Shown here: positions 6,080 through 57,400 of the stretch, piece after piece
How positions within the stretch are numbered: the first letter of the stretch is position 1
How the letters are laid out: every line of letters begins with the position of its first letter
Source of the DNA: Clostridiales bacterium
Lineage (GTDB): Bacteria; Bacillota; Clostridia; Christensenellales; JAISNN01
Assembly (NCBI GenBank): GCA_031273825.1
Contig: JAISRB010000055.1
Span: forward strand, 1 to 57,680
DNA: 57,680 bases
Reading direction: 5' to 3'
The notes under the pieces: generated by a model
Database searches by the model: none
Told to the model about the DNA's origin: nothing
Seen by the model: the letters and a program-made list of their open reading frames with translations, nothing else
Program-made: the position numbers and the translations under genes

Positions 6080-6116
6080 CGCGGACTAAAAAACCGCCGA
6101 ATAAAAAAATAATGAT

Positions 6117-6144
6117 TAGGGCTTGCGCGTATGCGTAAGCCCTA
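6117..6144. repeat. Solo hairpin module of the mosaic repeat family
   Basis: TAGGGCTTGCGCGTATGCGTAAGCCCTA matches the terminal module of copy 1. It lies between the SIS gene and the AT-rich island. Confidence 0.8.
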
Positions 6145-6161
6145 TAACTTTACTTAAAAGT

Positions 6162-6767: not shown

Positions 6768-6787
6768 TTTTCCCCCGCACGGTATAC

Positions 6788-7384
6788 TTAATCCCGCCTA
6801 TAAAACCTTTCGTCCGTGTTGTCCACCAATTCGCCGTCTATGAGTCTACAATTACAGAGCCATGTCTTTCTGCAAACCGTTTTCATTTCCTCATCGACTA
6901 TTTGTATTGATCCGGAATTAACGGCGGCAATCACCCTACCGCAAGCAATATCCTCGGTCATATGGGGAGCGATATAGGCTTCGGAAATATACGTATAATT
7001 TTTCTTTATCCATCTTCGCAATTTTTCAAATTGCTTATATATCGGATAATCATACGACTCGGAGTCAATCCATAATCTTCCCCAATCCAAAATATCCGTT
7101 TCACCTTTTTTTTGATATTTTCGCGGAGCACTATACTCTATAATTTTACTAGGATTTAGAGAATAAATAGTATACTTCGCCTCATAAAGAAGTATTTCGT
7201 TCATTTTTTCTAGCGATAAATAATATGTGTCGTTAAATTTAACATCCTCTGCAAGTTTATAGCAGTCGGAACTTATCGGCGGTCTTTTTTTACAAACGCA
7301 TACATTTAATCCAATTTCGGCGATAACATCCGTAAACTCTTTCATGTCCTCTTGCGATTGTAAGAATCTTATTTGTTTTCCCAT
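6788..7384 (-). CDS. Hypothetical protein, tandem paralog B
   Basis: 198-aa ORF. By eye about half of the positions are identical to 6162..6767. It is on the same strand with a 20-nt gap. Confidence 0.75.
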   Translation of the reverse strand: MGKQIRFLQSQEDMKEFTDVIAEIGLNVCVCKKRPPISSDCYKLAEDVKFNDTYYLSLEKMNEILLYEAKYTIYSLNPSKIIEYSAPRKYQKKGETDILDWGRLWIDSESYDYPIYKQFEKLRRWIKKNYTYISEAYIAPHMTEDIACGRVIAAVNSGSIQIVDEEMKTVCRKTWLCNCRLIDGELVDNTDERFYRRD

Positions 7385-7399
7385 ATGCGCACCTATAGG

Positions 7400-7672
7400 C
7401 TAAGTCCGCCGAGCGCGGCTTGCGGACTTTGTTTTCCGACTAAGCCGTCTTTTTTTCCCGTCCGTGTCGAGCGTCTGCGCCTCGACATACTCCGTCTTAG
7501 ACGGCATTTGAGCAACCTCTATCCCCGTCAGCTCATGCTTAGTCCCGAGCGTCACGCCGACCGTCACCCCCGCCGTCAACAAAACAAAGCACGCCGCAAC
7601 GAGAATCGCCGCCAATCGATTCCCGATATAAAAATATTTGATTTTATTAAGTAGATTTTTTATGATTATCAT
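7400..7672 (-). pseudogene. Probable 5' remnant of a surface-protein gene
   Basis: A signal-anchor (LAAILVAACFVLLTAGVTVGV) is followed by the start of an Ig-like module (LTGIEVAQMPSKTEYVEAQTLDTDG). The ORF then runs into an Arg/Lys/Ser-rich tail and a stop. Confidence 0.35.
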
Positions 7673-7735
7673 ATTCTCCGCCTCATAAAATAGGAATATT
7701 CCCCTAACATTATATCACATCTCATTACATTATCG

Positions 7736-8119
7736 CTAATCTTTTTGATATAAAATATCACAATCGCCGTCTACAAAGCCGTAAGCCACTACCTCGGCTT
7801 TTTTTAGTTTTTCGGCATATTTCCCTTCCTCCAAGTAGTCGGCAATAAAGGTTTGTATCAGTTTCAAACACTCCTCCCATTCCGCGTCCAGACTAAAATA
7901 ATATTCATTGTCGTCATTACGGCTTGCATACGTTTCCGCGCCGCCCGCATTCCAATCGGCGTCGTATTCGTCATATTTATCAAACGCCGTAAGCTCCACC
8001 GAATAGTTTTCATCTCCGGCGTTCTCATATATGTTAAAGCAAAACGCCGCCGTCTCTAAATTAAACGACTCTAACACCCCGTCTAACCACTTGTCAAATC
8101 CTCTTTGTAGTTCTTTCAT
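7736..8119 (-). CDS. Small acidic protein, immunity-protein-like
   Basis: 127-aa ORF rich in Asp/Glu, lying in the gene array downstream of the toxin. No family recognised. Confidence 0.6.
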   Translation of the reverse strand: MKELQRGFDKWLDGVLESFNLETAAFCFNIYENAGDENYSVELTAFDKYDEYDADWNAGGAETYASRNDDNEYYFSLDAEWEECLKLIQTFIADYLEEGKYAEKLKKAEVVAYGFVDGDCDILYQKD

Positions 8120-8139
8120 ATTACCCTCCGTTTTTCAGC

Positions 8140-8769
8140 TTATACGGTTTCAATAAGATGAAATGAAAAACCGTGAAACTTATTTTTAGTAAAGACGTTC
8201 TTAAAGCGTTCCGATACAAAAAAGTGCCATGTCCCATTAAATGTTTCCTCGGTCGGCGCAAGTTTAAACACATCTAAACCATCAATCGCCTTTTGGTTAA
8301 GAACATATTTAAGTGGCGTTTTCATTTTTCCGCGAAAACTAACTCTTTCGTCATTGATAGAATATCGCTCATACACCGAATGCTCATAATTGAATGCATT
8401 ATCAACTAATTTCAAGACGTTGGCAATACAAAAACCCTCTAACAATTCATTTTTCGACGTATATACGTCGATAGGAATATATTGAATGTCCTCAATGCCG
8501 GCCTCGTTTAAAGCGCGAACCAACCTCCTTGAAAAAATCGGCACCATATCGGAATTTTGCAATACATCATCCGGCTCTCCGTCATCCGCCTCATCGGCGG
8601 AACGAAATATTATTTTTTTATCAATCGCTTCAAATGGTTTACCTATTGAGAATATTTTTCTCGCAAGATGCCATTTATCCCATATCCTCAATTCTACTAA
8701 GTTCGTTTCACTGCAAATTAACGGATTTCGTACCGTTTTATCACAAAAGATCGTGCGATAGTATTGCAT
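8140..8769 (-). CDS. Imm11/DUF1629-like immunity protein (recall-based)
   Basis: 209-aa ORF. The pattern PDDVLQNSDMVPIFSRRLVRALNEAGIEDIQYIPIDVY...FKL...FFVSERFKNVF resembles DUF1629 immunity proteins of polymorphic toxin loci. Confidence 0.55.
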   Translation of the reverse strand: MQYYRTIFCDKTVRNPLICSETNLVELRIWDKWHLARKIFSIGKPFEAIDKKIIFRSADEADDGEPDDVLQNSDMVPIFSRRLVRALNEAGIEDIQYIPIDVYTSKNELLEGFCIANVLKLVDNAFNYEHSVYERYSINDERVSFRGKMKTPLKYVLNQKAIDGLDVFKLAPTEETFNGTWHFFVSERFKNVFTKNKFHGFSFHLIETV

Positions 8770-8903
8770 TTTTGCACCTCTACTTATTTCAGATAACCAA
8801 CTTTGGTATAGATAGGAATTTTTATGATGTCAAAAGTATAGTTGTGAGCTTTAATTGCATGCTCTTTGTATTCGTTAAATAATTTTATGATATCCATATT
8901 CCC

Positions 8904-9497
8904 TCACTTAAACGATAGTTCTATTTCTTCGCGATTATACTCAAATACCCAATCCGAGTATTTGTTATAAATCGTACGGCGTATTGTCGTATCTAAAATA
9001 ACCACATCACAACCTCTTTCATCATAAATGTTAATTGCGCATTTTTGATTTACATCTACTAAAAACAACTGAGAATCCAGTTTCATTTCATAGGCGCGAC
9101 TCAAAAGAACTTTAAGTACATCCTCATTGTTATTTATTATATATACTCTTGCTTTTTGCATAACTTGATAGTCTTCGTCTTCGGCTTTTGACATAAACGT
9201 GTAAACGAATCGAGATTTGTTATTCTCTCCTAATAAATTTGAAATTGTTTTTATACAGCGCACTTCTGCATCCGTAATCTGAACAGCTATCAGTTTATCA
9301 GAAAAAAACATATCATTACAAAGGCTAAGAATGAAGCTCATTATATTTTTTTCTTCATATTGCCCATGTTCCGCAATCTCAAAGCGAATTGACCTGCCTA
9401 AATTATAATAATATAATGGCATTTCAATCCAAATGTCCTCGGTAAGTTGCCGATACAAGCGTTTTAAATTTTTAAAATCATCCATCACTGTCGCCAC
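8904..9497 (-). CDS. Probable cognate immunity protein (DUF3885-like, recall-based)
   Basis: 197-aa ORF whose start codon directly abuts the toxin stop (9497/9498). The C-terminal INIYDERGCDVVILD...YNKYSDWVFEYNREEI resembles DUF3885. Confidence 0.65.
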   Translation of the reverse strand: MATVMDDFKNLKRLYRQLTEDIWIEMPLYYYNLGRSIRFEIAEHGQYEEKNIMSFILSLCNDMFFSDKLIAVQITDAEVRCIKTISNLLGENNKSRFVYTFMSKAEDEDYQVMQKARVYIINNNEDVLKVLLSRAYEMKLDSQLFLVDVNQKCAINIYDERGCDVVILDTTIRRTIYNKYSDWVFEYNREEIELSFK

Positions 9498-12400
9498 CTA
9501 AAAGAGTCTTTTAATAATCTCAAACAACTTGCCTGCCTGACTGGAATGTTTATTGATAATCAGTTTTCCAGCCGCATCGGCATCGCCAAGTAATTTTAAA
9601 TACTTGCCGCCATGTTCCTCTAATATTTTTAGCGAAGAACCGCCATGCCCGGAGATATCATCTACCAAATAAACGCCATTTGGTTGCTTGTATGCTGTTA
9701 CAACTTTACCGCCCTGCGCTTTATATCTAACCGCAGCTGTAGCATCCTTTTTAATCCAACACGCCGCATTGTGAACCAACACTCCGTCATTATCACCGAC
9801 AAAGTAATTATGATTACCGTCAACCTCGAAGTTATAAACCTTAACGGGCTTTTCTAATATCTCATGCTGAATAGCTTCAACAACAACCTTTTGCCCATTA
9901 ACGTTGACGAGAATATCTCCCGCTCTTAAATCCTCGGCAGAAATCCATGCGCCGTTCGCAAAGAATTTATGTCCCGGCGTGGCAACTATCTCCTGTCCGT
10001 CGGAGGTCGTTATTTTTGTAAGCTCCGTTACTGTATTCTCAAATGTTTGGAGTACCCTTTTGTTTTCGACTTGCCCTATGGTTTCGTTATAACTCTTTAC
10101 GTAATCGCCTACCTTTATATCCTCTATCGCTTTTGTTGAACCGCTTGCTAATACTACGGCAGTACCCGCTACAAAGCAGAATTTTATCTTACTCAACGCC
10201 TTGCCCACGCCGTGGATTACCACGCCCGTGATAAAGCCGACCGTAAAGGCCTTTAATATATCCTCTATGCTGCCGCCCTCTGCCCATGTCATTGCGGCCT
10301 CCGTGCCGCCCTGCAATAAGCCCGCGCCGAGCCAGCCTATGCCCGGAATCGCGGCAAGCGCGCCCGACACCGCCGCTATACTTACGCGCACCCAATTTAT
10401 GTCTTTTATCTTTTTGCCTTGAACGACCGTCTGCATGAATATTTCCATGCCCGCACCGATAAACGCGCCCATGATATACGGCGCGGCGGCGGTTGCTATT
10501 CCGCAAGATACCACACTGAGAACGCCTATTATTATAACGCCCGTGAGGACTGCCCCGACCGCAAGAGCCGCGCCCGCAAGCCTGTCAAGCCATGTCGCTT
10601 TATCCTCTTCCTCTTGCGGAAAATCAAGCACGGACAAATTTCCGTTCTCGTCGACCCAATAATACTGATTCGGGCCGACCATTCGCTCCATTTGGTAGAA
10701 TTCCTCAACGTCAATCCCTAACAAGCTCTCGTCTTGATTGCTCAAATAATAAGCGTCAAGCGCGGAATAGCTGATATACACAAAATTCATTGTGTCCACG
10801 GTAAAGCCGTTCGCGGTTTGCTCCGCGATATACCTCTCATATTCGCCCTTAGCAATCACGGGGTCAAGTAAGGTGTTGAGCGAAGTTGCGCTAACATTGT
10901 ATGCCGCGCCTAAATCGGGGTCAAAAACATTGCGTCCGTCGTCATAGCTATACACCGCGCCGTACTCCGGATTGTATACGCTCTCGTCGGCGGCAGAAGT
11001 ATACAATACTTCCGTTCCGGTTACGCTATACACGACATATTGTCCGTCCGCGACGTAGTGACACGGACCGTAGCTTTCGGTGAAGCTCAATATGTAGCCG
11101 TAGGCTACCGTTTCTATACCTTCGTCCGATTGCTCGCCGTCCGGCTCTTGCGCGTATGCGTCTATTATATAAACTCCGTTCTCTATATCCTCTTCGGTTA
11201 TCTCGGCTTGCCGCGGGAACGCGACAAAGCCCGCGCCGAAGTATATTGTTTCGTCGCTCTCCTCCCCGCTCTCGTAAGCTTCGGCGTAGTCGGAATACCC
11301 CAAGCCCAAAACCTCCGCGCCGCCCTGCAATAGGGCTTTTGCCGGAAACACGTCGTAGCCCAAGGAATACAAATCGAGCATGATAAGCGCGTATAAAAAC
11401 GCCTCCCCGTCGGAAATGTCAAGCGCATTGTCTTGACCGCCCGCCTCACCCGACGCATTCACCGCGCTCATAAAGGTAGCTATTACTTCATCCTTTGTCG
11501 GTTTGTTTTCGATTTCGGAATTGCCAAATTCTAATCCGTTAAACAACGACGCGTCGGAATAGGTCTGCTCCGTCTGCGCGGTTGTTTCTTGTTGTCCCGC
11601 TTTGATTAAGCCTTGCCACGCTCCGAGCCTATCCCAATCGCCGAACGCGCTCAGCGCGAACAGCGCAACGACAAGCGCAAGCGCGGTGACCGTCGAAAAC
11701 GAACCGAGCTTTGCGAAACCGACCTTTTTTGCTCTCTTTGGCTTTAGCTCAAATGAAACCAAGCGCATATTCTCCGCCGTGACGGGCGGTTTGCAGGCGG
11801 TTCTATTCTTAATTTGACCGACTAAAGCCGACCCGAATAAGCCCTGTCTTTCGCGTCTTTTGGCGGCGATATATACTATAGCCAAAGCGAATACTGCAAA
11901 AAGCGTCGCGAGCAAGCCCGCTTGCGATTGACTTGACAAGCTCAAGCCGCTTTCCGCCGCGGCCGCGGTTCCGCTCCCATACGGCGACGCCGTTCCCGCC
12001 GCCGCGCTTTGCCCCTGCGCTCCGCCCGTCGCTCTCGCTGTCCAAATCGCCTCAAGCATGATTTTACCGCCAGCGTTTTCGGGAACTGTCATTGTTCCGC
12101 CCGTATAAATTTTCCCGGAAATCGACGTCGTTCTCCACACCCAGCCGACAAGCGTATACCCAGCCCTTGTCGGATTCGGCATGGCAAGCGCCGCCCCCGC
12201 GAAGCCTTGCGCAAACGTCGGGTCAAGCGTCCCGTCGACAAAATGAACGCGCGTCCGCCCTCCCGTACCGTTTTCTAAGCCGTCAAGCGAAACGTCGCCG
12301 TTCCTTATCCACAGCGCGTCTAAGCGCATAGCCGTCACGTTGGCAAGGCTTGTTATCTGTCCGTAATATACCTTGCCGACTCCCGCGCTTTCCTCTAAAT

Positions 12401-18366: not shown

Positions 18367-18399
18367 GCGTTCGTTGTGCCGCTGTTGTTGTATGCGCTA

Positions 18400-18517
18400 T
18401 TGACAAAGCCCGCCCTCATTCACTCATAGATATATTGACAAAGCTTGCCTCGTTCACTCATTGACAAAGCCCGCCCGTTCACTCATGAGATATTTACAAA
18501 GCCCGTCACGTTCATTC
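18400..18517. repeat. Iteron-like direct repeats, array B (4 units)
   Basis: TTGACAAAGCCCGCCCTCATTCACTCAT (18400), TTGACAAAGCTTGCCTCGTTCACTCA (18435), TTGACAAAGCCCGCCCGTTCACTCAT (18461) and TTTACAAAGCCCGTCACGTTCATTC (18493). Confidence 0.8.
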
Positions 18518-18904: not shown

Positions 18905-19362
18905 GTTTTGGTCCGCCTCCTCATTTTTCCGTAATTTATCGCGCCGCAAATAAAGCTTTCTGATTTGCGGATAACGATAATACCTATATTATAATACAAA
19001 TATATCTGCACGGCAAATAATTATATTTAGATTTATATAGATTTAATAGAATTTATAAAACTTTATATGAATTTAATTAAAGTTTTTGTTATTTTTTACA
19101 AAATAAACGACAAAAAGCGACACGCTTCCTTATTTTTCCCTATATTTGTATGATATTGTCAAGCATAAAAGCGGCCTCCCGCCGCGTTTTTGCGCCGCGC
19201 AATCCGTTAGCGGATAGCCGAAACGACCGCCTTGTCGCCTCATGGCGTGTTTTTTGCATACGCCGACGCGCAACTTATATTATCGTGCAGCCACGGCGTC
19301 CCCTAAAGCCTAAGGCAAACGCATTTTTTATGCGTTCGCCACGAAACGCTAAGCGCGGTCCG

Positions 19363-43875: not shown

Positions 43876-45279
43876 TTATCGTTTTACCTCGTTTATGTAG
43901 GTCTGAACGTCTATGACCTTGGCCTTTATCTTTGCGTCGGTCTTGATTTTTTCGGCGATTTTGTCGCGGGCGTGTATGACCGTCGTGTGGTCGCGTCCCC
44001 CGAATAGCTGTCCTATCGAGACGAGGGGCAGAGACAGCATTTCGGTTATGAGATATATGGCTATCTGCCGCGGCTCGACGACCTCCTTATTTTTCTTTTT
44101 GCCGGTTATGTCGCTTTTTGTTATGTTGTAGCGGCTGCAGCAGGCGTCGATAATGTCGTATGCCGTCAGGCTCTCTTTTTTTACGTCGACGTAGTCCTTT
44201 AAGGCCTCGCCGGCAAGCGTCAGGCTGTTTGCCGGTCTGCCTACGAGCGTCGAATAAAAGACGACGCGCGACAGCAGCCCCTCCATTTCTCTTATGTTGC
44301 TGTCGACCTTTTCGGCGATAAAGTTTATGACGACGGGGTCTACGTTATATTTTTCCTGCAGGGCTTTTTTCTTTAATATCGCCACTCTCGTCTCGAGGTC
44401 GGGCGGCTGGATGTCGGCGATAAGCCCCGACAAAAACCGCGAACGCAGGCGTTCCTCAAGGTGAGAAATCTCCTTTGGCGGCTTGTCCGAGGTCATAATT
44501 ATCTGCTTGCCGTTTTGGTAGAGGTCGTTAAAGGTGTGGAATACCGCGTCCTGCGTTCCCGCCTTTCCCGACAAAAACTGAATGTCGTCCATCATCAGCA
44601 CGTCCGCGCTCCTATATTTTTCGCGGAATTCGCGGCTGTCCTTGTTGTTCCTTATGGAATCTATAAGCTCGTTGGTAAACTTCTCGGTCGGAACGCAGGT
44701 TATCTTTAGCGACGGATTTTTTTCGCGCAGATAGTTTCCGATGGCGTGCATTATGTGCGTCTTGCCGAGTCCCACGCCTCCGTATATAAACAGCGGATTA
44801 TATTTCTTTCCCGGATCTTCGGCGACCGCCCTTGCGGCGGCGGCGACGTATCTGTTTGATTCGGCGACTACAAAATTGTCAAAGGTATATTTAGGCACAA
44901 AAAACGTGCCGTTCTCCTCTTTTTTTTCGACGGCGGCGGCTATCAGCTCGGCTTCGCCCGAGTGCGCCTTATCGATATAACGCTCCTTTTCGTCGTCAAC
45001 GATGATTTCGACGTCGGAAACGCAAAAATCAGCGTCGGCCTTTAAATCTGAATTATAAATTACGCTTTCGCCCGCCTTGATTAGCGCGGAGCGTATGTCG
45101 CCGATATAATTTTTGTTTATCAGCACCTGCGAGGATTTTGACGGCGTAATCAAAATGAGCTTGTCGTCGGCGACGCATAGCGGAATTAACGTTTTTATCC
45201 AAACGTCATAACTGACCTGCGACATAGAGGCCGACATCGTTTCGAGAGCCCGTGACCATAATTCATCAATTTTTAACAT
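43876..45279 (-). CDS. dnaA: Chromosomal replication initiator DnaA
   Basis: 467 aa with Walker A GGVGLGKTH, DDIQFL, sensor motifs, and the domain IV HTH (GGRDHTTVIHA). Confidence 0.95.
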   Translation of the reverse strand: MLKIDELWSRALETMSASMSQVSYDVWIKTLIPLCVADDKLILITPSKSSQVLINKNYIGDIRSALIKAGESVIYNSDLKADADFCVSDVEIIVDDEKERYIDKAHSGEAELIAAAVEKKEENGTFFVPKYTFDNFVVAESNRYVAAAARAVAEDPGKKYNPLFIYGGVGLGKTHIMHAIGNYLREKNPSLKITCVPTEKFTNELIDSIRNNKDSREFREKYRSADVLMMDDIQFLSGKAGTQDAVFHTFNDLYQNGKQIIMTSDKPPKEISHLEERLRSRFLSGLIADIQPPDLETRVAILKKKALQEKYNVDPVVINFIAEKVDSNIREMEGLLSRVVFYSTLVGRPANSLTLAGEALKDYVDVKKESLTAYDIIDACCSRYNITKSDITGKKKNKEVVEPRQIAIYLITEMLSLPLVSIGQLFGGRDHTTVIHARDKIAEKIKTDAKIKAKVIDVQTYINEVKR

Positions 45280-45436: not shown

Positions 45437-45904
45437 TTATTTGACGCTTTTTCTCCTCTCTCTAAAAAAGGCTTGGAGCAGCCCGAGACACTCCCCGCTA
45501 AGCAAACCCTCAAAACACCGCGTCTTGTGATTGTAGCCTCCGCCCTCCAATATTTCGCGGCTCGACGCCTTGTCGTCGGCTACGGCGTAATATAAATTTC
45601 TTATTCTCGACTGAACAATCGCGCCCGCGCACATAGGGCAAGGCTCAAGCGTCACATAGAGGTCGCAACCGTCAAGCCGCCAATCGCCGAGAATTTTTTC
45701 GGCTTTTTTTATGGCGGCGGTTTCGGCGTGGCAGAGCACGCTGCGGTTTTTTTCTATGGAGTTGTGCGCGGAGGCGATTATTTCGCCGTTTTTTACTATG
45801 ACCGCGCCTACCGGCACCTCGCCTGCTTTATAGGCCTTTTTTGCCTCGGCGAGGGCTTTTCTCATAAAATATTCTCCGTTGTCAAAATTATCCGAAGCGT
45901 CCAC
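45437..45904 (-). CDS. tadA: tRNA-specific adenosine deaminase
   Basis: HAETAAI and PCPMCAGA zinc motifs. Confidence 0.9.
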   Translation of the reverse strand: MDASDNFDNGEYFMRKALAEAKKAYKAGEVPVGAVIVKNGEIIASAHNSIEKNRSVLCHAETAAIKKAEKILGDWRLDGCDLYVTLEPCPMCAGAIVQSRIRNLYYAVADDKASSREILEGGGYNHKTRCFEGLLSGECLGLLQAFFRERRKSVK

Positions 45905-46793
45905 GTCGTCCTCCTCTCAAAATGTAGTCAGTGACCTCTGTCACGCCTGAGTTTCTCTGCCAAATAGCGTCAAAATCGCCGTTCAGCTCCGCGTAGGTCT
46001 TGTTTTCCGCGCCGACCTCAAAGGTCAGGCTCAAACGGTCGTAGGTCATGGTAAACCAATCCTTATAGCCGCCCGCGCTCCCCGCGCTCCAAGAAAGCCG
46101 ATAGCCCGTGACCTTAGAATACAGCTCCGCGCCCGCGGGGCAAGGCGTGTTGTTTTTGTAGCCGTAATAGATTACCTCGCCCTTGCAGTGATAGCACAGC
46201 GCGATATCAAAGCCGAGCTTAGCCGTGAAATCGGTGAGGGCGCGTGTTTCCGTCTGACTTTCCGGATATTCGCCGATATAGTTTGACGGAGACGGAACCG
46301 TGACGTTTTGAGTCCCCGTTCCCCAATCGGCGTCAAAGTTTACGTTGAGGTCTACGGCGTTGATATTCGCCTTCCAGAGGCTAAAGTCCGGGCCGCCGTT
46401 TATCCTTAACAGTCTTTGCTTTATCGCGTCCTTCTCGCCTGCAATAAGGCTTTGAATAAAGCCGCCGTCAATCAAAAAGTCGAGCGCGTCAAGCCCGAAT
46501 ACGCACAGCGCGACGCCGTCGACGTTGACCAGCGGAACAAAATATATCGCGCTTTTGCCGTCGTATTCCTCCGCCATTTTGACTGCAAGCGGCGCGGTTA
46601 TATATTCGCGCGCGTGAATCGCCCCGAATATCAAGGCCTTGCCGTAAGCTTCGTCTCCCTTTTTTATATAGGGAATCGCGCACCCGAGCGCGGTTTTGCC
46701 TATACAGCCCGTCTCAAATCCGCGCTTTTTGAATTCCCCGACCGCCCGATAAACGCCGTTTATTACGTCCTTTGGGTTTATAATGCCGCTCAT
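45888..46793 (-). CDS. M14-family metallocarboxypeptidase (gamma-D-glutamyl-diamino acid peptidase-like)
   Basis: FGAIHAREYIT (HxxE) and the general length and pattern of the family. It overlaps the tadA start by 17 nt. Confidence 0.75.
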   Translation of the reverse strand: MSGIINPKDVINGVYRAVGEFKKRGFETGCIGKTALGCAIPYIKKGDEAYGKALIFGAIHAREYITAPLAVKMAEEYDGKSAIYFVPLVNVDGVALCVFGLDALDFLIDGGFIQSLIAGEKDAIKQRLLRINGGPDFSLWKANINAVDLNVNFDADWGTGTQNVTVPSPSNYIGEYPESQTETRALTDFTAKLGFDIALCYHCKGEVIYYGYKNNTPCPAGAELYSKVTGYRLSWSAGSAGGYKDWFTMTYDRLSLTFEVGAENKTYAELNGDFDAIWQRNSGVTEVTDYILRGGRRGRFG

Positions 46794-46828
46794 AATAAAA
46801 ACTCCTTTTTATCATTATATGAGTTTTA

Positions 46829-47024
46829 GCGAGCAGCGGTCAGTGAGCCGTGGTCAGTGAGCCGTGGTCAGTGGTCGTCAGTGAGCGGTCGTCAGTGAGC
46901 GGTGGTCAGTGAGCGGTGAGCAGTGAGCGGCGGTCAGTGAGCCGTGGTCAGTGGTCAGTGAGCGGTGGTCAGTGAGCCGTGGTCAGTGAGCAGTGAGCAG
47001 TGAGCGGCGGCGGTAGTTAGTGAA
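46829..47024. repeat. Imperfect 14-nt minisatellite (GGTGGTCAGTGAGC)n
   Basis: About a dozen CAGTGAGC cores at 9-14 nt spacing. Stop codons occur in every frame. It lies between divergent genes. Confidence 0.85.
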
Positions 47025-47052
47025 TTGCGCGGTTTGCCGTCACACACCCGTT

Positions 47053-47081
47053 GTAGGGGCGGACGCCCCCGGCCGCCCGCA
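47053..47081 (+). repeat. GC-rich REP-like palindromic element
   Basis: GTAGGGGCGGACGCCCCCGGCCGCCCGCA (stem GGGCGG/CCGCCC). Copies also occur at 51482-51508 and, inverted, at 51600-51628. Confidence 0.8.
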
Positions 47082-47263
47082 AAGCAACGCTTGCTTATAT
47101 ATTATACAACGCCGCATTTTTTTAGTCAAGGGGTTATAAGCAACAAGCCTATATTCACCGCCGCTGACCGCTACCTATTCACTATTCGCCGCCCCGAAAT
47201 AATTTGCTTTTTTTGCCGCGATGTAGTATGATATTGTCATCAACAAAAAAGGGCTTTCTTTTG

Positions 47264-48040
47264 ATGCTAAAGGTATGTCCGTTAGGGAGCGGAAGCAAAG
47301 GAAACTGCGTATATTTGCAGTCTGATAAGGCCAAAATTTTGATAGACGCGGGGCTTTCCTTCGCCGAAATCAAAAGACGGCTGAGCGATATCGACGTGAG
47401 GCTTTATGAGCTTGACGGCGTCATCATAACGCACGAGCACAACGACCATATAACGGGGCTTAGCGGCTTTCGCGGCAGCGGCATTCCGATTTTTGTCCAT
47501 ACCTTTGCCGCGCCGATAATAGGCGGCAAATTTCAAGGACTCGAGCTAAAAAAAATCTCGGAGCAAGCCTTTGACTTTGCCGACCTCAGCATAACGCCCT
47601 TCAAAATTCCCCACGACGCGGTCTACCCCTTGGGCTACAGAATATCGTCAAAGAACAAAACTCTGAGCGTCGCCACAGACGTGGGCTTTGCCGCCGACAA
47701 CATAATCGAGGCCATGAAAGACAGTGATTGCATCGTCGTCGAGGCCAACCACGACGAAAGCTTGCTGATAAACGGCGGCTATCCCAAACGGCTAAAGGAG
47801 CGCATTCTCGGCGGCCGCGGCCACCTCAGCAACGCAAGCTCCGCCGAGCTTTTGTCAAAAATAATCACGCGCCGCACGTCAAATCTCCTCCTCGCCCACC
47901 TCAGCGAGGAAAACAATCTTCCCGAGCTTGCCTTTGAAACCGTCGCAAAAAAGCTCGCCGAAAACGGCTTTTATGAGCGCGGAGACTTCAAAATCGGCGT
48001 TCTGAAACAGAACGAAAGAGGAAGTTTTTTTGACGTTTGA
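47264..48040 (+). CDS. MBL-fold metallo-hydrolase (YycJ/WalJ-like)
   Basis: LGSGSKGN and HEHNDHITG motifs. ATG at 47264. Confidence 0.85.
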   Translation: MLKVCPLGSGSKGNCVYLQSDKAKILIDAGLSFAEIKRRLSDIDVRLYELDGVIITHEHNDHITGLSGFRGSGIPIFVHTFAAPIIGGKFQGLELKKISEQAFDFADLSITPFKIPHDAVYPLGYRISSKNKTLSVATDVGFAADNIIEAMKDSDCIVVEANHDESLLINGGYPKRLKERILGGRGHLSNASSAELLSKIITRRTSNLLLAHLSEENNLPELAFETVAKKLAENGFYERGDFKIGVLKQNERGSFFDV

Positions 48041-48127: not shown

Positions 48128-51100
48128 CTACGCCAGGTGATCCCTATAATGGTCCGCTCCCCATTCCAAAAACGCTTCTACGGCGTTATCATAAGTATGA
48201 TAAGGATCGGTCCCGTCCCATACGTTTACGTCGATCTGCGTCCAACCGGCTACAACGCCGGACGTTGCCTGCCAATCGGTGCTTCTATAGTCTATATAAG
48301 CGTTCTTTATCCAGCTAAAATAATTTTCGGTGTCCATGATCATATCGTTCATAACGAGCAGACGCTGCGTCAGGAAGTTTATCATATAGGCGTAATGATT
48401 GACAAACGTCAATTTATTTCCCTCGGTAAGCTCATCTAAATTAAGCCCCGTCAGCGTGTTAAACCACAACGTCTCGTTGGCAAGCGCGGCATCCATTATG
48501 TGCGCCTGATATTCTTGCAAAAAGACTATGTGCTCCTCGAACACGTCGTGTAACAGGTTCTCCCATCTCGCCTTCATAAGGGTGCGGAAATCCTCAAACT
48601 CGAGCATCTTTGCAAACCAGTTTCTCGTCGATATCCACGTATACGAGGCGTTGTCCGGGCTCTCGCTAGGGTTGACGACCGAGTTATAGCTCCAGAGTCC
48701 CGGATTTGTCGAACCCTTATATTCGGCGACAAACATATCGAAAGGACCGCCTACCGACCAGTCGATATCCCAGACCGGCCCCATTTTTAGCTTTCCGTCC
48801 GCGCTCTTGCTCATAAACACGCTCTTGCCGTAAACGTCGCAATTCATAAGCCACTCTTGAATGAGATAGTAGTCTATAAACGAATCCATATCGACAAGCT
48901 CGTTAAGCTTAGCCCAGACCTCCGGATCATAAGGGTGGCGCATGAGATAGTCTATATACTGAACGTAAGAATATATATACTTAAACTGCGTCTCCGTCAG
49001 GCCGTGCTCGTCAATGCTCGGGTATGCCACCTTGGCGACGACGTAGCCGTTCATGGTGCTAAGCGTAAACGTCGCGTCGTAGGTTGCCGCGTTGTAGTAG
49101 TTAAAATAGAACGCTCCGGTAGAAGGATTTTGCGCGAACGGATCGGCCGCCGTCGCGTCAAGCTCGACGAGGAAGGCAAAGTCGCTCCGGTCCGCCGGGT
49201 CAAACGTCGGCTCGTACATCGAGCCGCCCTCGGCTATCTCGTCCTCGTCCATCTCTATTCCCAGTCTCTGCTCCTGAATCTGATCCGTCAGCATATATAT
49301 GCCCTGATAAACACCGTTGATAAACACCTCGACGTGGTAGCCTATTCTGCCCGTGCTTTGCGTCTCGAGCTTTTCGGCAAGGCTAAGCGCGGCGTAGTCT
49401 CTGACGACCGCCGCGTCGAGCGCGGACGCCAAAAGCACCCAGCTCTTAAAGGCCTCGCTGCCAAAGAAGGAGGTCTTGGTGTCAAACTTGATGCGATAAG
49501 GCTTTTTTGCCCTGCTTGCGGTGGTGTTGCCTCTTACTCTTATGCCTCCGACCTTTCCGTCAAAATAGACGTATTCGTCCTCGACAAATTTGAAGCTCGA
49601 AAGCGTATAGTCGTCGTTGTCCGCGTCGCTTGTCTTAGGCGGAATCGGAACGTTTCCGTCGGTGGTTATATAGATTATCGGAAGTATTCCCGCCGTTATC
49701 GAATAAGGCGGCGTGTCAAATATCTCCGTCCATGCTCCGTCTGCGAGGCTTCTCGGGCGGTATTTGCCTACGTCCGCAGACGACCAGTCGATAAATTCCG
49801 CGTCTACGGCGTTGTCGTCGGTGTCGGCGAAGTCTATGCGCCTCAAGGCCTTTTGCTTTGACTGACCGGAAGGCGCGGCCGCGCCCTCAAAGGCGTCTAT
49901 GCTGTCGTTTTTGCCCGTGCCCTTGGCGGCGAGCATATCTATATAGCCGTAGGCCTTTGCGCCCTCTCCGTCGATATTAAAAGGATTCTCGACGGTCAAA
50001 ACCTCGGTGTTAGTCATCAAAACGACCTTGACCGACTTGTTTTGTAGGGTTATGCCGCTCCAGTTGAGGTCGGCCTCGGTTATTCTCAAATTTGCCGGGT
50101 CGGCCATGCCGGTGTTGGCGTAATCGGTCAGTCTTATAAGGAAGGAGGTCCTCGCCGGAATACTCCCGAAAAGCTCGATCATCTGCCACTCGGTTCCGCT
50201 GCTTGCCGCCTGCACAGACCAGCCGGCTATCGAGACGGCTACGTCGTTAGGGTTATAAAGCTCGATAAAGGAGTGTGAGCCCATAGCGTCCGTCTTGTCG
50301 GCCACGCCGTATATCTGATTGATTATAATCATGTCTTGCGCCGAATATTTTGCGTTCAGCGTGACGTTGTGAGACGGCATCGCCGTTCCGAATTGATAAG
50401 GAACCGTGTCCGGACCGTCGGCCTCGTACCAATATTCAAACACGTGTCTATAAGAATAAGGAATATAAGAGATCGACGTCGTCGCCGCTCCGACGGCGTA
50501 GCTGTTTTGGGCGACTATCTCGCCCTCGCTCGCGTATTTGAGGTAATAGTCAAATTTTGCGTATACGTTGACGGCCTTAGTCAGACGCGCCGAAACGTAT
50601 TCCGTGCCGTAAAACGGTACTGTCCAAACGTCCTCGTCATAATACCACCCGACAAACTCGCCGGAGTCCGCGGTTGCTTGCAAATTTGGCAGCGGAATTG
50701 TCTCTCTGCCGGAGGTCATATAGGTTGATACAAGCTTGTTTTCGGCGTAAAATCTGACGGGATATTGGTCAAACGCGCCCCATTTGGCTCTAAGTATGAG
50801 ATTTCTCGCCGGCATAACGTCGGTATAAGGTTGGGTCTCGTCGGTCTCATACCAATAATAAAACGCCAAATCGTCACGGGCAGGCGGAGACCACGGCGTG
50901 ATTGCAGCGCCCGAGACATAGGCGACCTTGTGCGTTCCCGAGCCGTATTCATAGGTCAGGTTGTAGTTAAACTTAGCGTAAACCCTTAGGTCGGAGGTCA
51001 ACGCCGACGTCTTATAAACGCTCGCGTCAAACGGAGTGCTTATGTTGCCGTTGATATACCAGCCGATAAAATTGCCGTATACCGCTCCGGGCGTAGTCGG

Positions 51101-51280
51101 CAATTTTATTTCCTCATTGCCCGCGGTCTCGACTGTGTCGTAGACCTCGTTTTCGACGATAAACTCGATTTTGTAAACCGTCGGCTTCTTTTTAGTCCAC
51201 GTCCAATCGCAACCCGCCGCTGCAAGCGCAAAGCAGGTCAGCAACACGGCCGCCAAAACTAATTTTGTTACCTTTTTCAT
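48128..51280 (-). CDS. Secreted (probable lipo-)protein: B-repeats, lamin-tail domain and CotH-family domain
   Basis: Signal peptide MKKVTKLVLAAVLLTCFALAAAGC. InlB-type repeats (FIGWYING, FYYWYETD, FVGWYYDE). LTD (SFIELYNPNDVAVSIAGWSV). CotH-like (YHVEVFINGVYQGIYML, GPVWDIDWSVGG). Confidence 0.85.
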   Translation of the reverse strand: MKKVTKLVLAAVLLTCFALAAAGCDWTWTKKKPTVYKIEFIVENEVYDTVETAGNEEIKLPTTPGAVYGNFIGWYINGNISTPFDASVYKTSALTSDLRVYAKFNYNLTYEYGSGTHKVAYVSGAAITPWSPPARDDLAFYYWYETDETQPYTDVMPARNLILRAKWGAFDQYPVRFYAENKLVSTYMTSGRETIPLPNLQATADSGEFVGWYYDEDVWTVPFYGTEYVSARLTKAVNVYAKFDYYLKYASEGEIVAQNSYAVGAATTSISYIPYSYRHVFEYWYEADGPDTVPYQFGTAMPSHNVTLNAKYSAQDMIIINQIYGVADKTDAMGSHSFIELYNPNDVAVSIAGWSVQAASSGTEWQMIELFGSIPARTSFLIRLTDYANTGMADPANLRITEADLNWSGITLQNKSVKVVLMTNTEVLTVENPFNIDGEGAKAYGYIDMLAAKGTGKNDSIDAFEGAAAPSGQSKQKALRRIDFADTDDNAVDAEFIDWSSADVGKYRPRSLADGAWTEIFDTPPYSITAGILPIIYITTDGNVPIPPKTSDADNDDYTLSSFKFVEDEYVYFDGKVGGIRVRGNTTASRAKKPYRIKFDTKTSFFGSEAFKSWVLLASALDAAVVRDYAALSLAEKLETQSTGRIGYHVEVFINGVYQGIYMLTDQIQEQRLGIEMDEDEIAEGGSMYEPTFDPADRSDFAFLVELDATAADPFAQNPSTGAFYFNYYNAATYDATFTLSTMNGYVVAKVAYPSIDEHGLTETQFKYIYSYVQYIDYLMRHPYDPEVWAKLNELVDMDSFIDYYLIQEWLMNCDVYGKSVFMSKSADGKLKMGPVWDIDWSVGGPFDMFVAEYKGSTNPGLWSYNSVVNPSESPDNASYTWISTRNWFAKMLEFEDFRTLMKARWENLLHDVFEEHIVFLQEYQAHIMDAALANETLWFNTLTGLNLDELTEGNKLTFVNHYAYMINFLTQRLLVMNDMIMDTENYFSWIKNAYIDYRSTDWQATSGVVAGWTQIDVNVWDGTDPYHTYDNAVEAFLEWGADHYRDHLA

Positions 51281-51481
51281 TTAGTCTCTCCTTTTTCGAT
51301 TCTATTTTTTTTGATTTGACTTTACCTCGTTTGTTTTTTCATAAGTTTTTTTGGGGGTGTTTTTTCGTTTGTTTGTTTGAGGATTTTTCGTTTGTTTGCT
51401 TAATATTTCGTTTGTTTTCCGATTACCTCTTTTGTTTTGCCGTTTTCTGTCTATATAGCTATCTGATATATCGTACTTGTT

Positions 51482-51508
51482 GTAGGGGCGGACGCCCTCG
51501 GCCGCCCG
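51482..51508 (+). repeat. REP-like palindromic element
   Basis: GTAGGGGCGGACGCCCTCGGCCGCCCG. Confidence 0.8.
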
Positions 51509-51599
51509 TCGTTCCCCGAATTTGTGTATGCCGTATTGTTTATGTACGTTGTCGTTGTTTTACGTGCGTCACGGATTGTTTATGTGCATTGCCGCTGTC

Positions 51600-51628
51600 T
51601 GCGGGCGGCCGGGGGCGTCCGCCCCTAC
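51600..51628 (-). repeat. REP-like palindromic element (inverted copy)
   Basis: The reverse complement, GTAGGGGCGGACGCCCCCGGCCGCCCGCA, is identical to the 47053-47081 core. Confidence 0.8.
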
Positions 51629-54424: not shown

Positions 54425-57400
54425 TTACGCGTTGTTGCTTTTCTTTAAATTTGATTTGTGAATGACGGGCATGACGCCGGCGTGGAAAGCCGCCCCGCCC
54501 ACCGCGTCAACCCACATCACCGGCAGAACGTTAAACCATGTTCCGTTGGTCAGGTTAGCTTGATTTAACAGCGCGTTGTTGGTATCCGTACCCATCTCGA
54601 GCAACGAATAGCTACTGCCGAAAACACCGCCCATTACGTCCGTCCAGCTAATTTGCGGAGTACGCTGCGCCTGATTTATGCGGAAAAGATTTGAATACGA
54701 CGCAAAATTGTTGTTGACCGTGTTGTATTCGGTGTTTATAGCATTGACCAACGTATTCATATTGTCGGTGTTAGCCCAAGCGGCTCTGACGCCGGCGTTT
54801 CTGTCATAGGCCTTCAAATTGCTGTAGCCGGCGATTAGCAGCACCGCTCCCGCCTTGTCGGTCACCGCGTCGCCGTAGGTCAGAGACCCGAGCGGCTTTG
54901 ACGAGACGTTATACGGAATGTAGTCAAAGAGCGTTCTGCCGTTGTACGAGACTCCGGAGATAAAGCTATATAGCGCGCTGAGATTTGAGCCGTTGGTATA
55001 GATTCTCTGTATGTCGAGCACTATCAGCTCTCTCGGGTAGTTAGACATAAACTGCAATACGCCTTTGAGATAAGACTCAAAGGTATCAGAGATAAGCCCG
55101 TGCTCGGTATACCACGTTCCGTTCGTATAAACCAGCCGCACGTCAAAGAGTCTGACGCCGTTTCCGGCTAAGTCATACGCGCCGAGGCTTTGAGCCTTTG
55201 AATACGTCGTCGTCTGTGACTTTACCGTGCCCTCAAACCATTTAAAAAAGATATTATTTTTATTATCGAGATAATTCGGATCAACAGGATTCCACGGGCT
55301 GTCCTTTGAAATGCTGTGAGTAAACGCGTCGTGCGCTCCGAGCATAGCTATATCGACGACGCGGACGTTTTTGCTGAACACGCTGTTGGCCATCGCGTTA
55401 GCGTAATAAGTCGTACTCTTAAACTCGGTCTCCGTCGCCCACCTCGCATAAAGCGTCTTTTGCGACGCCGTACCCGTAGGAACCCACGGGAAAAGCTCCG
55501 GATAATCGGCGGAGGACGTCAACCCCCACCCTAAAAAGACGCTTGACGTCTTTGTCGGGTGCGTCGGCAACGAGGCCGACTGCCCCTCATAGACGATTTG
55601 GTCGGGAATATTGCCCGTCCCGCCGTTTTTGTCAAATATGACGGTATAATAGAACGTCCACTTGGCGTAGAGCGTTATGTCGCGCGTAGGAGTATAAGGA
55701 AAGGTCACCGCCGAACCGCTATATGCCGACGACTCGTACCACCCGTCAAAGCGGCGGTTTGCCCAACTCGGGTCGCCGGGCTTAGCTATCGACGAGCCGG
55801 CTCTGACGTTTTGAGAGGCGACTCCCGACCCTCCCGTCGAGTCAAAGGTGACGGTATAAAGCTCCGTCCACTTGGCGTAGAGGGTTAGGCTTCCCGTCGG
55901 TTGATAAGGCGAGGTCACCGCCGTCCCCGTGTAGTTTGACGACGTAAACCACCCGTCAAAGGCGTAGCCGGTTCTCACCGTCGGCGGCAGTTCTATGCTC
56001 CTGTCGGCTCTCACCGTTTGAGAGCCGACGGCCGAGCCGCCCATAGAATCAAAGGCGACGGTGTAGAGAACCATCCATTTGGCGTATAGCGTTATGCTCG
56101 CCGTCGGCGTATAAGGCGAGGTCAACGCCGTGCCGGTAAGAGCCGTCGACGTAAACCAACCGTCAAATTCATTGTTAGCCTTTGACGGAGTTATCAAAGT
56201 TATCGACGCGCCCGCCCTCACCGTTTGGGAGCTTACCGACGAGCCGCCGTTTGAATTGAACGTCACCGTGTAGAGAACCGTCCATTTGGCGTATAGCGTT
56301 ATGCTCGCCGTCGGGGTGTAGGTCGTAGGCAATACCGTTCCCGTGCCGCTCGACGAGGTCACCCAGCCGTCAAAGGCATAGCCGCTCCTTGTCGTTGTCG
56401 GCAGAGTTATCGACGAGCCGGCTCTCACCGTTTGTGAGCTTACCGACGAGCCGCCCATAGCGTTAAAGGCGACGGTATAGAGAGCCGTCCATTTGGCGTA
56501 AAGCGTAATATTGCCCGTCGGGGTGTAAGGCGAGGTCAAAGCCGAGCTGGTAAGAGCCGACGAGGTAAACCAGCCGTCAAAGTCATAGCCGCTCTTTGTC
56601 GTTGTCGGCAGAGTTATCGACGAGCCGGCTCTCACCGTTTGTGAGCTTGCCGACGAGCCGCCGTTTGAATCAAAAGTGACGGTGCTTTTCCATGCGGCGT
56701 ATAGCGTGATATTGCCCGTCGGCGTATAAGGCGAGGTCAACGCCGTGCCCGCAAAAGCCGACGAGGTAAACCAACCGTCAAAGGTATAGGTTCCTCTCGT
56801 CGGGGTCGATAGAGTCACCGACGCACCCTCCCTCACCGTCTGCGGGCTTACGGACGAGCCGCCGTTTGAATTGAACGTCACGGTATTTTTCCACGCGGCG
56901 TAAAGCGTAATATTGCCCGTCGGCGTATAAGGCGAGGTCAAAGCCGTGCCGTCAAAAGCCGACGACGCAAACCAGCCGTCAAAGGTATAGCCGCTCCTTG
57001 TCGGGGTCGGCAGAGTTATCGACGAGCCTGCTCTCACCGTTTGGGAGCTTACCGACGAGCCGCCGTTTGAATTGAAAGTCACGGTATTTTTCCATGCGGC
57101 GTAAAGCGTTATGTTGCCAGTCGGGGTGTAAGGAGAGGTCAAAGCCGTGCCGTCAAAAGCCGACGAGGTAAACCAACCGTCAAAGTCATAGCCGCTCCTT
57201 GTCGGGGTCGGCAGAGTTATCGACGCGCCCTCTCTCACCGTTTGGGAGTTTATAGACGAGCCGCCGTTTGAATTGAAAGTCACCGTGTTTTTCCACGCGG
57301 CGTAAAGCGTTATGTTGCCCGTCGGCGTGTAAGGCGAGGTCAACGCCGTGCCGTCAAAAGCCGACGACGCAAACCAGCCGTCAAAGGTATAGCCGCTTCT

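What the first reader, a model, noticed from the sequence alone, without database searches (positions are those of the whole stretch)
46829..47024. About 196-bp imperfect 14-nt minisatellite between divergent genes
About a dozen CAGTGAGC cores are embedded in GGTGGTCAGTGAGC-like units, with variants GGTCGTCAGTGAGC, GGTGAGCAGTGAGC and a truncated GGTCAGT. The array lies 35 nt upstream of the M14 peptidase start and about 240 nt upstream of the MBL gene. The unit length is not a multiple of 3 and stops occur in all frames, so it is non-coding. Slippage here would change promoter geometry, allowing phase or rheostat variation. Alternatively, the repeats could be a binding array.
Basis: seen in the sequence. 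Interest (0 to 1): 0.5.

Follow-up and report, generated by a model that had tools for sequence, protein, structure and literature searches.

The report
Dispersed heptamer repeat array beside hairpin
The "14-nt minisatellite" is real, but it is one copy of a genome-wide family of 7-base tandem arrays, most of them attached to a small GC-rich hairpin; this is a known, still unexplained class of bacterial repeat, not a switch built for these two genes.

Summary
Window 46828-47018 holds 26 tandem heptads, mostly AGTGAGC alternating with SGTGGTC, which gives the 14-nt look. It has stops in all six frames. It lies 35 nt from the M14 peptidase start and about 250 nt from the MBL start.

It is not a private feature of this gene pair. 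The genome (1.74 Mb draft) carries at least 19 arrays of the same RGYGRNN heptad type. Eleven of them are followed, in one fixed orientation, by a GTAG + GC-palindrome hairpin that has 27 copies; here it is at 47053-47078. A short inverted heptad arm lies at 47158-47193.

Two same-genus relatives keep the divergent M14/MBL pair but have no array. Such arrays are sporadic in the order (11 of 401 genomes) and occur across many phyla. In this order, heptamer arrays are strongly enriched around PF05635 (23S-rRNA IVS protein) genes. Earlier agents of this scan reported that link on other DNA, and I confirmed it here. This genome shows no PF05635 gene.

No RAYT, omega repressor or HutP gene was found.

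Verdict: a new member of the known heptanucleotide repeat class (STRR / LSSR-like). A regulatory rheostat like hmw1A is possible but unsupported.

The parts
46828..47018 (+). Heptad array. 26 units of type RGYGRNN, mainly AGTGAGC alternating with SGTGGTC. G 45%, C 18% on the + strand.
47008..47052 (+). Array-to-hairpin spacer. Its first 16-17 nt (GGCGGTAGTTAGTGAA) recur at the same place in other copies (contigs C55, C74, C77, C96).
47053..47078 (+). GTAG + GC-rich palindrome hairpin (REP-like). It is one of 27 copies in the genome. The family module ends right after it.
47079..47157 (.). Locus-specific DNA that is unique in the genome. On the - strand it holds a strong sigma-70-like site, TTGACT-17-TATAAT (47129..47101), pointing towards the M14 gene.
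47158..47193 (-). Short inverted heptad arm of about 5 heptads, 77% complementary to the array end 46985-47010.
46814..46843 (-). Weaker promoter-like site, CTGACC-18-TATAAT. Its -35 hexamer is the first heptad pair of the array.
45888..46793 (-). M14 zinc carboxypeptidase gene (PF00246), the left flank.
47264..48040 (+). Metallo-beta-lactamase-fold gene (PF12706), the right flank. The ATG at 47264 is taken as the start.
51482..51628 (.). Two more copies of the same GTAG hairpin in this window (51482-51507 on +, 51603-51628 on -). They form an inverted, REPIN-like pair without heptad arrays.

Best explanation
The array is a long simple-sequence repeat with a 7-nt unit. It is one copy of a lineage-specific, dispersed mosaic repeat family built as heptad array, then a short conserved spacer, then a GTAG/GC hairpin. 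This family colonised intergenic DNA of this genome, including the M14/MBL spacer. The array most likely grew from the heptad-like 5' arm of the hairpin module by slipped-strand mispairing and multi-unit duplication (inferred). The G-rich strand folds back on itself, which would favour slippage (fold shown, consequence inferred). It has no dedicated function at this locus. Its effect is incidental: it adds about 190 bp between the unique promoter-like site at 47129..47101 and the M14 ribosome-binding site. It is therefore probably transcribed as a C-rich, unstructured leader, or else it sits just upstream of a weak proximal promoter. The wider origin of such arrays may be the arms of hairpin cassettes that carry a PF05635 gene in relatives (association shown in the order, descent inferred).
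For: The genome has 19 arrays of at least 35 nt of the same RGYGRNN type, and 11 are followed within 120 nt on the same strand by the GTAG hairpin. Of the 27 hairpin copies, 16 are preceded by heptads. An unbiased TRF run shows that almost all long period-7 arrays in the genome are of this type. The conserved module ends just after the hairpin and merges into heptads on its 5' side. The arrays lie both upstream of starts and directly after stops. Same-genus G001 and G002 keep the divergent M14/MBL pair with 340-350-nt spacers but have no array or hairpin. Arrays occur in only 11 of 401 genomes of the order but in more than 120 contigs across many phyla, including the same heptads AGTGAGC and AGTGGTC. 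Higher-order periods of 35, 38 and 49 nt occur inside the array. The + strand folds at -33.2 kcal/mol as DNA (z -7.5) and -60.5 kcal/mol as RNA (z -5.8), while the - strand does not fold. Period-7 arrays sit at contig ends more often than expected, 4 of 38 against 2.3% (p 0.01). The class is described in the literature: heptanucleotide LSSRs, TAACTGA repeats (PMC4679880) and GGGNATC arrays (PMC4692102).
Against: No reads or near strains could be examined, so slippage and length polymorphism remain inferred. No transposase or other mobilising gene was found, so how the family spreads is unknown. The invariant G at heptad positions 3 and 5, seen across arrays and genera, could reflect selection for binding a protein or RNA rather than shared descent. 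My order-wide pattern imposed that core, so its conservation there is partly circular. A heptad SSR in a 5' leader is a proven rheostat in H. influenzae hmw1A (PMC12721329).
Confidence: 0.55

Rival explanations
1. The array and its short inverted partner are the decayed, gene-less arms of a mobile hairpin cassette. In full form this type of cassette brackets a PF05635 (23S-rRNA intervening-sequence / Avd-like four-helix-bundle) gene. That protein, supplied in trans or now lost, propagates or maintains the heptad arms.
For: In this order, 16 of 32 PF05635 loci have a period-7 array within 350 nt, 10 have arrays on both sides and 7 have exactly inverted units. Array density is 1.65 per kb next to the gene, 0.19 per kb in the rest of the same loci and 0.022 per kb genome-wide in G000. 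Same-genus G004 has such a cassette. G084 and G219, which carry RGYGRNN-type arrays, have them around PF05635 genes. G000 has inverted array-plus-hairpin pairs on contigs C14 and C55, and the window has a long and a short inverted arm.
Against: No PF05635 gene was found in G000, G003 or G082. No GTAG hairpin lies at any PF05635 cassette examined. Most G000 arrays are single-armed. The 563-nt loop on C14 has no credible ORF. The right arm here is only 36 nt.
Confidence: 0.3
2. The array is a leader-length rheostat for the M14 peptidase. It is transcribed in the 5' UTR, pairs with the G-rich short arm, is processed by RNase III, and expression scales with heptad number, as for the (ATCTTTC)n repeat of H. 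influenzae hmw1A.
For: A strong promoter-like site at 47129..47101 points through the array to the M14 start. A minus-strand RNA of 46794-47203 folds with a long stem between the short G-rich arm and the array end, in both the MFE and the centroid structure (z -2.3). PMC12721329 gives the precedent.
Against: The G-rich arm lies upstream of that promoter, so it would not be part of that transcript. The leader from the promoter alone is not structured (z -1.2). The same arrays sit after stop codons and next to housekeeping genes elsewhere. Congeners lack the array. No polymorphism or expression data exist.
Confidence: 0.12
3. The heptads are a periodic binding platform for an oligomeric DNA- or RNA-binding protein. 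Candidates are an omega-type ribbon-helix-helix repressor or centromere binder, a HutP/TRAP-type ring protein, a nucleoid protein, or Rho loading on the C-rich leader.
For: G is invariant at heptad positions 3 and 5. Other arrays of the family contain AGTGATT, which is the reverse complement of the omega heptad WATCACW (own knowledge). G003 arrays read UAG-N4 like HutP sites (own knowledge). Rho is encoded in the genome, and the minus-strand RNA is C-rich and unstructured.
Against: No PF07764 match was found in G000 or G003. HutP was found only in G082. The window heptads are AGTGAGC and GGTGGTC, not WGTGATW or UAG-N4. The arrays occur in both orientations relative to genes.
Confidence: 0.08
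4. The array, or at least its length, is an assembly artefact of a metagenome-assembled genome.
For: The genome is a 132-contig draft, and arrays are over-represented at contig ends.
Against: The same architecture recurs at 19 or more loci with unique flanks, and the array sits inside a 57.7-kb contig. Related arrays occur in independent genomes.
Confidence: 0.03

Closest known systems
Heptanucleotide long simple-sequence repeats (Mrazek et al. 2007, as summarised in PMC4679880) and cyanobacterial STRR repeats (Mazel et al. 1990, own knowledge)
   Same: Both are tandem 7-nt units dispersed at many intergenic loci. Their phylogenetic distribution is sporadic, slippage is the proposed origin and no function has been shown.
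   Different: The host is an uncultured small-genome bacterium from a gut or digester type of lineage. The heptads are AGTGAGC/GGTGGTC. Most copies are coupled to a GTAG hairpin, which is not described for STRR.
TAACTGA direct repeats of Beggiatoaceae, cyanobacteria and Bacteroidetes (MacGregor 2015, PMC4679880)
   Same: These are intergenic heptamer arrays, often a few nucleotides upstream of a start codon. Close relatives with the same gene neighbours lack them, and contigs often break in them. The reverse strand of the present units (TCACTGA) differs by one base from TAACTGA.
   Different: The arrays here are longer and imperfect, with mixed heptads in one array. They occur in every gene context, not mainly before start codons.
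GGGNATC G-rich heptamer arrays of Xanthomonas and Nostoc (Rehm et al. 2015, PMC4692102)
   Same: The arrays are G-rich on one strand. The G-rich strand is antisense just upstream of an ORF, as here for the M14 gene, or sense just after a stop. Unit number is variable.
   Different: There are no G-tracts of three or more, so a classical G-quadruplex is unlikely. There is no preference for four units.
REP / REPIN / BIME elements with RAYT transposases (PMC3116915)
   Same: The hairpin has GTAG next to a GC-rich imperfect palindrome, tens of extragenic copies and inverted doublets. Like BIMEs, it is combined in a mosaic with other short motifs.
   Different: No Y1 transposase (PF01797) was found in G000, or in G002 and G016, which carry related hairpins. 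REPs are not known to carry heptad arrays.
H. influenzae hmw1A (ATCTTTC)n 5'-UTR repeat (PMC12721329, PMC8262952)
   Same: [quoted passage not shown]
   Different: hmw is a single contingency locus for an adhesin with proven length polymorphism. The present array belongs to a dispersed family, and its polymorphism, TSS and RNase III dependence are unknown.
ORF-bearing 23S rRNA intervening sequences / PF05635 hairpin cassettes
   Same: They have inverted arms made of heptamer arrays. This was confirmed in this order.
   Different: The window has no PF05635 gene and no rRNA context. Its core is a GTAG hairpin plus unique DNA.

Membership tests
Heptanucleotide LSSR / STRR-like dispersed arrays | Tandem direct repeats of a 7-nt unit, far longer than chance would give | tested here: met
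   26 heptads. CAGTGAGC occurs 12 times against 0.5 expected.
Heptanucleotide LSSR / STRR-like dispersed arrays | Many dispersed, mainly intergenic loci in one genome | tested here: met
   19 arrays of at least 35 nt. TRF gives the same picture.
Heptanucleotide LSSR / STRR-like dispersed arrays | Sporadic, lineage-specific distribution, with the array absent from orthologous spacers of relatives | tested here: met
   Arrays occur in 11 of 401 genomes of the order. They are absent from the M14/MBL spacer of G001 and G002.
Heptanucleotide LSSR / STRR-like dispersed arrays | Unit-number variation in 7-nt steps between strains or reads | not testable with these tools
No near-identical contigs were available.
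REP/REPIN-RAYT | GTAG-type tetranucleotide next to a GC-rich imperfect palindrome, with many extragenic copies | tested here: met
   27 copies. The hairpin folds at -11.3 kcal/mol.
REP/REPIN-RAYT | Inverted doublets (REPINs) | tested here: met
   Inverted pairs occur on C30 (51482/51603), C55, C90, C113 and C14.
REP/REPIN-RAYT | A cognate RAYT (Y1 transposase, PF01797) in the genome | tested here: not met
   None was found in G000 (89% complete), G002, G003 or G016.
Phase-variable promoter or leader SSR (contingency locus) | Unit changes alter -35/-10 spacing, the reading frame or a defined leader structure | tested here: inconclusive
   The array is not between a -35 and a -10 site. It may lie in a leader from the site at 47129..47101. 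A long-range stem forms only if transcription starts further upstream.
Phase-variable promoter or leader SSR (contingency locus) | Length polymorphism within populations | not testable with these tools
PF05635 (IVS-protein) heptamer-armed hairpin cassette | Two inverted heptamer arrays forming a hairpin shell | tested here: inconclusive
   A long arm at 46828-47018 faces a 36-nt inverted arm at 47158-47193, with 26 nt at 77% complementarity.
PF05635 (IVS-protein) heptamer-armed hairpin cassette | A PF05635 gene between the arms | tested here: not met
   There is no ORF between the arms, and no PF05635 match anywhere in G000.
Omega-repressor heptad operator or centromere (inc18 plasmids) | WATCACW heptads together with an omega-family RHH protein | tested here: not met
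   The window heptads are AGTGAGC and GGTGGTC. PF07764 was not found in G000 or G003.
HutP-type UAG-N4 RNA site | UAG triplets at 7-nt spacing together with a HutP gene | tested here: not met
   The array has CAG and CGG at that position, not UAG. PF09021 was not found in G000.

The most novel reading that the evidence does not exclude
Heptad arrays of this kind, here and in the many phyla where they occur, are the cis-acting arms of small mobile hairpin cassettes. A PF05635 four-helix-bundle (Avd-like, '23S rRNA IVS') protein propagates or maintains them. The window copy is a gene-less derivative whose core has been replaced by a GTAG hairpin. If so, the long-unexplained STRR-type heptamer repeats would gain a partner protein.
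Probability: 0.2. Interest if true: 0.65.

Novelty: new member of a known kind. Interest (0 to 1): 0.3.

Why it matters
For the two flanking genes it matters little. The array is most likely a passenger that lengthens a leader or an upstream region. Its value is as one more well-delimited example of dispersed heptanucleotide arrays in a lineage where they had not been described. It has two useful extras. First, it is coupled in a fixed orientation to a REP-like GTAG hairpin in genomes that show no RAYT. Second, this bacterial order confirms that heptamer arrays cluster around PF05635 genes. Either link could lead to the mechanism that makes and spreads these repeats, which is still unknown. 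In practice, such arrays break short-read assemblies and would make good strain-typing markers.

Tried and rejected
- Rfam scan of 46500-47500 at E up to 1 gave no match.
- RAYT/Y1 transposase (PF01797) was absent from G000, G002, G003 and G016.
- Omega repressor (PF07764) was absent from G000 and G003.
- HutP (PF09021) was found only in G082.
- A link to the replication origin was rejected. dnaA lies 1.6 kb away, but the window has no GC-skew switch and no DnaA-box cluster.
- Strain-level alleles could not be obtained. Exact-protein look-ups for M14 and MBL found nothing.
- PF05635 was not found in G000, and the loop of the C14 inverted pair has no credible ORF.
- No GTAG hairpin lies next to any PF05635 cassette.
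- I tried to name the taxon through loci of named genomes, but kinship is not reported for those.
- The 'control' column of the pattern searches is uninformative, because the pattern reads the same backwards. The 390 genomes without any match serve as the control instead.

Full report
OBSERVATION

The repeat is there. Tandem Repeats Finder reports 46838-47007 with period 14, 12.9 copies and 77% matches. It also reports overlapping higher-order periods of 21, 35, 38 and 49 nt. CAGTGAGC occurs 12 times in the 57.7-kb window, all between 46841 and 47005, against 0.5 expected from shuffles. GGTCAGTGAGC with at most one mismatch occurs 9 times against 0.26 expected.

Read in register, the array is 7-periodic. 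It has 26 heptads from 46828 to 47018. Twelve are AGTGAGC, and these alternate with CGTGGTC, GGTGGTC, AGTGGTC or GGCGGTC. One 3-nt and one 7-nt irregular piece interrupt the series.

The + strand is 45% G and 18% C, and all six frames carry 3-6 stops.

The flanking genes are an M14 carboxypeptidase (45888-46793, minus strand) and a metallo-beta-lactamase-fold protein. The best start for the latter is the ATG at 47264.

WHAT SURROUNDS IT

About 45 nt after the last heptad lies a hairpin: GTAG followed by a GC-rich imperfect palindrome, at 47053-47078. The next 79 nt (47079-47157) are unique in the genome. On the minus strand they hold a strong sigma-70-like site, TTGACT-17-TATAAT at 47129..47101, pointing towards the M14 gene. 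Then comes a short inverted run of about five heptads (47158-47193), which is 77% complementary to the end of the array.

A weaker promoter-like site (46843..46814) takes its -35 hexamer from the first heptad pair. Slippage inside a tandem array does not move the junction with unique DNA. It therefore could not change the -35/-10 spacing of that site (inference).

IT IS A FAMILY, NOT A PRIVATE FEATURE

- The window's own genome is a 1.74-Mb, 132-contig draft, 89% complete. It contains 27 copies of the GTAG hairpin.
- It contains 19 arrays of at least 35 nt of the heptad type RGYGRNN.
- Eleven of the 19 arrays are followed within 120 nt, on the same strand, by the hairpin. Three more end at contig ends and cannot be judged.
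- Sixteen of the 27 hairpins are preceded by heptads.
- An unbiased TRF run on the whole genome shows that nearly all long period-7 arrays are of this type. Examples are AGTGGTC, TGAACAG, CAGTGGT and ACTAACC. The window copy (172 nt by TRF) is among the longest.
- Aligning nine copies shows a conserved module that ends right after the hairpin. On its 5' side it dissolves into heptads. The spacer's first 16-17 nt recur at the same position in other copies.
- Hairpins also occur without arrays, for example as inverted REPIN-like pairs. One such pair is in this window at 51482-51507 and 51603-51628.
- Arrays also occur without hairpins.
- The arrays are found upstream of starts, directly after stops, and between tandem, convergent and divergent genes. 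There is no fixed relation to promoters.

RELATIVES

Two same-genus genomes (G001, G002) keep the divergent M14/MBL pair with spacers of about 340-350 nt. Their spacers contain no heptad array and no GTAG hairpin. The insertion or expansion is therefore specific to this lineage.

A six-heptad RGYGRNN pattern matches 11 of 401 genomes and 8 of 173 genera of the order, each with its own heptads: GGTGAAA, AGTGGTT, AGCGATT and others. The other 390 genomes give zero matches.

Related GTAG hairpins with other loops are abundant in G002 and G016, but they are not attached to arrays there.

The hits came from Planctomycetes, Acidobacteria, Cyanobacteria, Bacteroidota, Chloroflexota, Clostridia and others. 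They included arrays of the very heptads seen here, AGTGAGC and AGTGGTC.

COMPARISON WITH THE LITERATURE

This is the class that the literature calls heptanucleotide long simple-sequence repeats. Its best-known examples are the cyanobacterial STRR repeats. MacGregor (PMC4679880) summarises three points:
- Heptanucleotide repeats are the most abundant long-SSR class.
- Polymerase slippage is the proposed cause.
- Close relatives with the same gene neighbours often lack the arrays, and contigs tend to end in them.

Rehm et al. (PMC4692102) describe G-rich heptamer arrays placed antisense just upstream of ORFs or sense just after stops. That matches the placement here. No function has been shown for any of these repeats.

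MECHANISM CANDIDATES TESTED

- No RAYT (PF01797) was found in G000, G002, G003 or G016. The hairpin is therefore REP-like in form only.
- Some family arrays contain AGTGATT, the reverse complement of the omega-repressor heptad (own knowledge). No PF07764 match exists in G000 or G003.
- HutP, which binds UAG-N4 repeats (own knowledge), is present only in G082.
- Rfam gives no match.
- dnaA lies 1.6 kb away, but there is no skew switch or DnaA-box cluster.
- The G-rich strand folds strongly on itself: -33.2 kcal/mol as DNA (z -7.5) and -60.5 kcal/mol as RNA (z -5.8). The C-rich strand does not fold. This asymmetry would favour slipped structures on one strand (inference).
- The leader transcribed from 47129..47101 is not significantly structured (z -1.2).
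- A longer minus-strand RNA that includes the short arm forms a long stem between that arm and the array end (z -2.3). This resembles the hmw1A 5'-UTR hairpin of H. influenzae, where a 7-nt SSR acts as an RNase III-dependent rheostat (PMC12721329). The short arm, however, lies upstream of the only good promoter-like site.

LEAD FROM EARLIER WORK OF THIS SCAN

Heptamer arrays have been noted before on other DNA, in 479 notes from at least 439 genomes. One note concerns the same genome. Several follow-ups proposed that such arrays are the arms of hairpin cassettes carrying a PF05635 (23S-rRNA IVS / Avd-like) gene. I tested this in the present order.

- PF05635 occurs in 29 of 151 genomes, including same-genus G002 and G004.
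- Of 32 PF05635 loci, 16 have a period-7 array within 350 nt, 10 have arrays on both sides, and 7 have exactly inverted units.
- Array density is 1.65 per kb next to the gene. It is 0.19 per kb in the rest of the same loci and 0.022 per kb across G000.

The association holds in this order. Several results argue against applying it to this window:
- G000 itself shows no PF05635 gene.
- No GTAG hairpin lies at those cassettes.
- Most G000 arrays are single-armed.
- G000 does have inverted array-plus-hairpin pairs on contigs C14 and C55, but without a credible ORF between the arms.

VERDICT

The array is best read as a slippage-born heptanucleotide satellite. It belongs to a dispersed mosaic repeat (array plus GTAG hairpin) that has colonised this genome's intergenic DNA. 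Any effect on M14 or MBL expression is incidental (confidence about 0.55).

Descent from PF05635-type cassettes is plausible (about 0.3) and does not exclude the main reading. An hmw-like rheostat (about 0.12) and a protein-binding platform (about 0.08) remain possible.

Indirect signs of instability are the internal block duplications and the excess of arrays at contig ends (4 of 38 against 2.3% expected, p 0.01).

Its proteins, such as CotH and the Listeria-Bacteroides repeat, point to an uncultured gut- or digester-type Clostridia-like lineage. So do the habitats of distant M14 relatives: human gut and other metagenomes. This placement is an inference.

Noticed in passing
window 51482-51507 (+) and 51603-51628 (-): Two more copies of the GTAG/GC hairpin form an inverted, REPIN-like pair upstream of the CotH-domain gene (48128-51280, minus strand). 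T-rich 20-23-nt tandem repeats lie next to them at 51358-51417.
   Followed up: partly
window 55787-57679: A tandem repeat of 201-nt period (8-9 copies, about 80% matches) runs to the window end. It is probably a coding repeat of a surface protein, and an earlier scan note describes 198-nt B-repeats here.
   Followed up: no
window 43876-45279 (-): This is a DnaA-family gene (PF00308, PF08299, PF11638). The window has no DnaA-box cluster and no GC-skew switch, so the gene is either a paralogue or the origin is not adjacent.
   Followed up: partly
window 6000-10500: A low-GC stretch (0.39-0.40 against 0.50) with strongly negative GC skew (-0.21 to -0.24). It may be a foreign island.
   Followed up: no
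window 18399-18514: A 58-nt tandem duplication, itself two 26-nt units that each start with ATTGACAAAGCCCGCC. An AT-rich 10-20-nt repeat follows at 19019-19075.
   Followed up: no
L269 (G084:C2:168735-172043), L271 and L272 (G219), L284 (G004): PF05635 genes are bracketed by inverted heptamer arrays, for example (AAAGGTG)6 ... gene ... (CACCTTT)5. In G004, nested long inverted repeats form a hairpin shell around the gene.
   Followed up: yes
L273 (G000:C14:21800-24000) 651-768 and 1332-1475: A large inverted pair of array + spacer + GTAG hairpin (61-nt arms, 89% complementary) encloses 563 nt. That stretch holds two further hairpin copies and no credible ORF.
   Followed up: partly
G000:C15:4765-4970: Three head-to-tail copies of a 64-nt unit each end in the GTAG hairpin, with no heptads. 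The hairpin therefore also multiplies in tandem.
   Followed up: no
L012 (G002:C29) 2560-2720: The orthologous M14/MBL spacer of a congener carries its own long inverted repeat (TAGTCCTATAACCTAT ... ATAGGTTATAGGACTA). This suggests the spacer is repeatedly colonised by different small repeats.
   Followed up: no
G000:C66:22804-23853: Two heptad arrays each sit right after the stop codon of small paralogous genes. The C-terminal peptide sequence of these genes (DNDFFD-type) looks PIN-domain-like, but this was judged by eye only.
   Followed up: no
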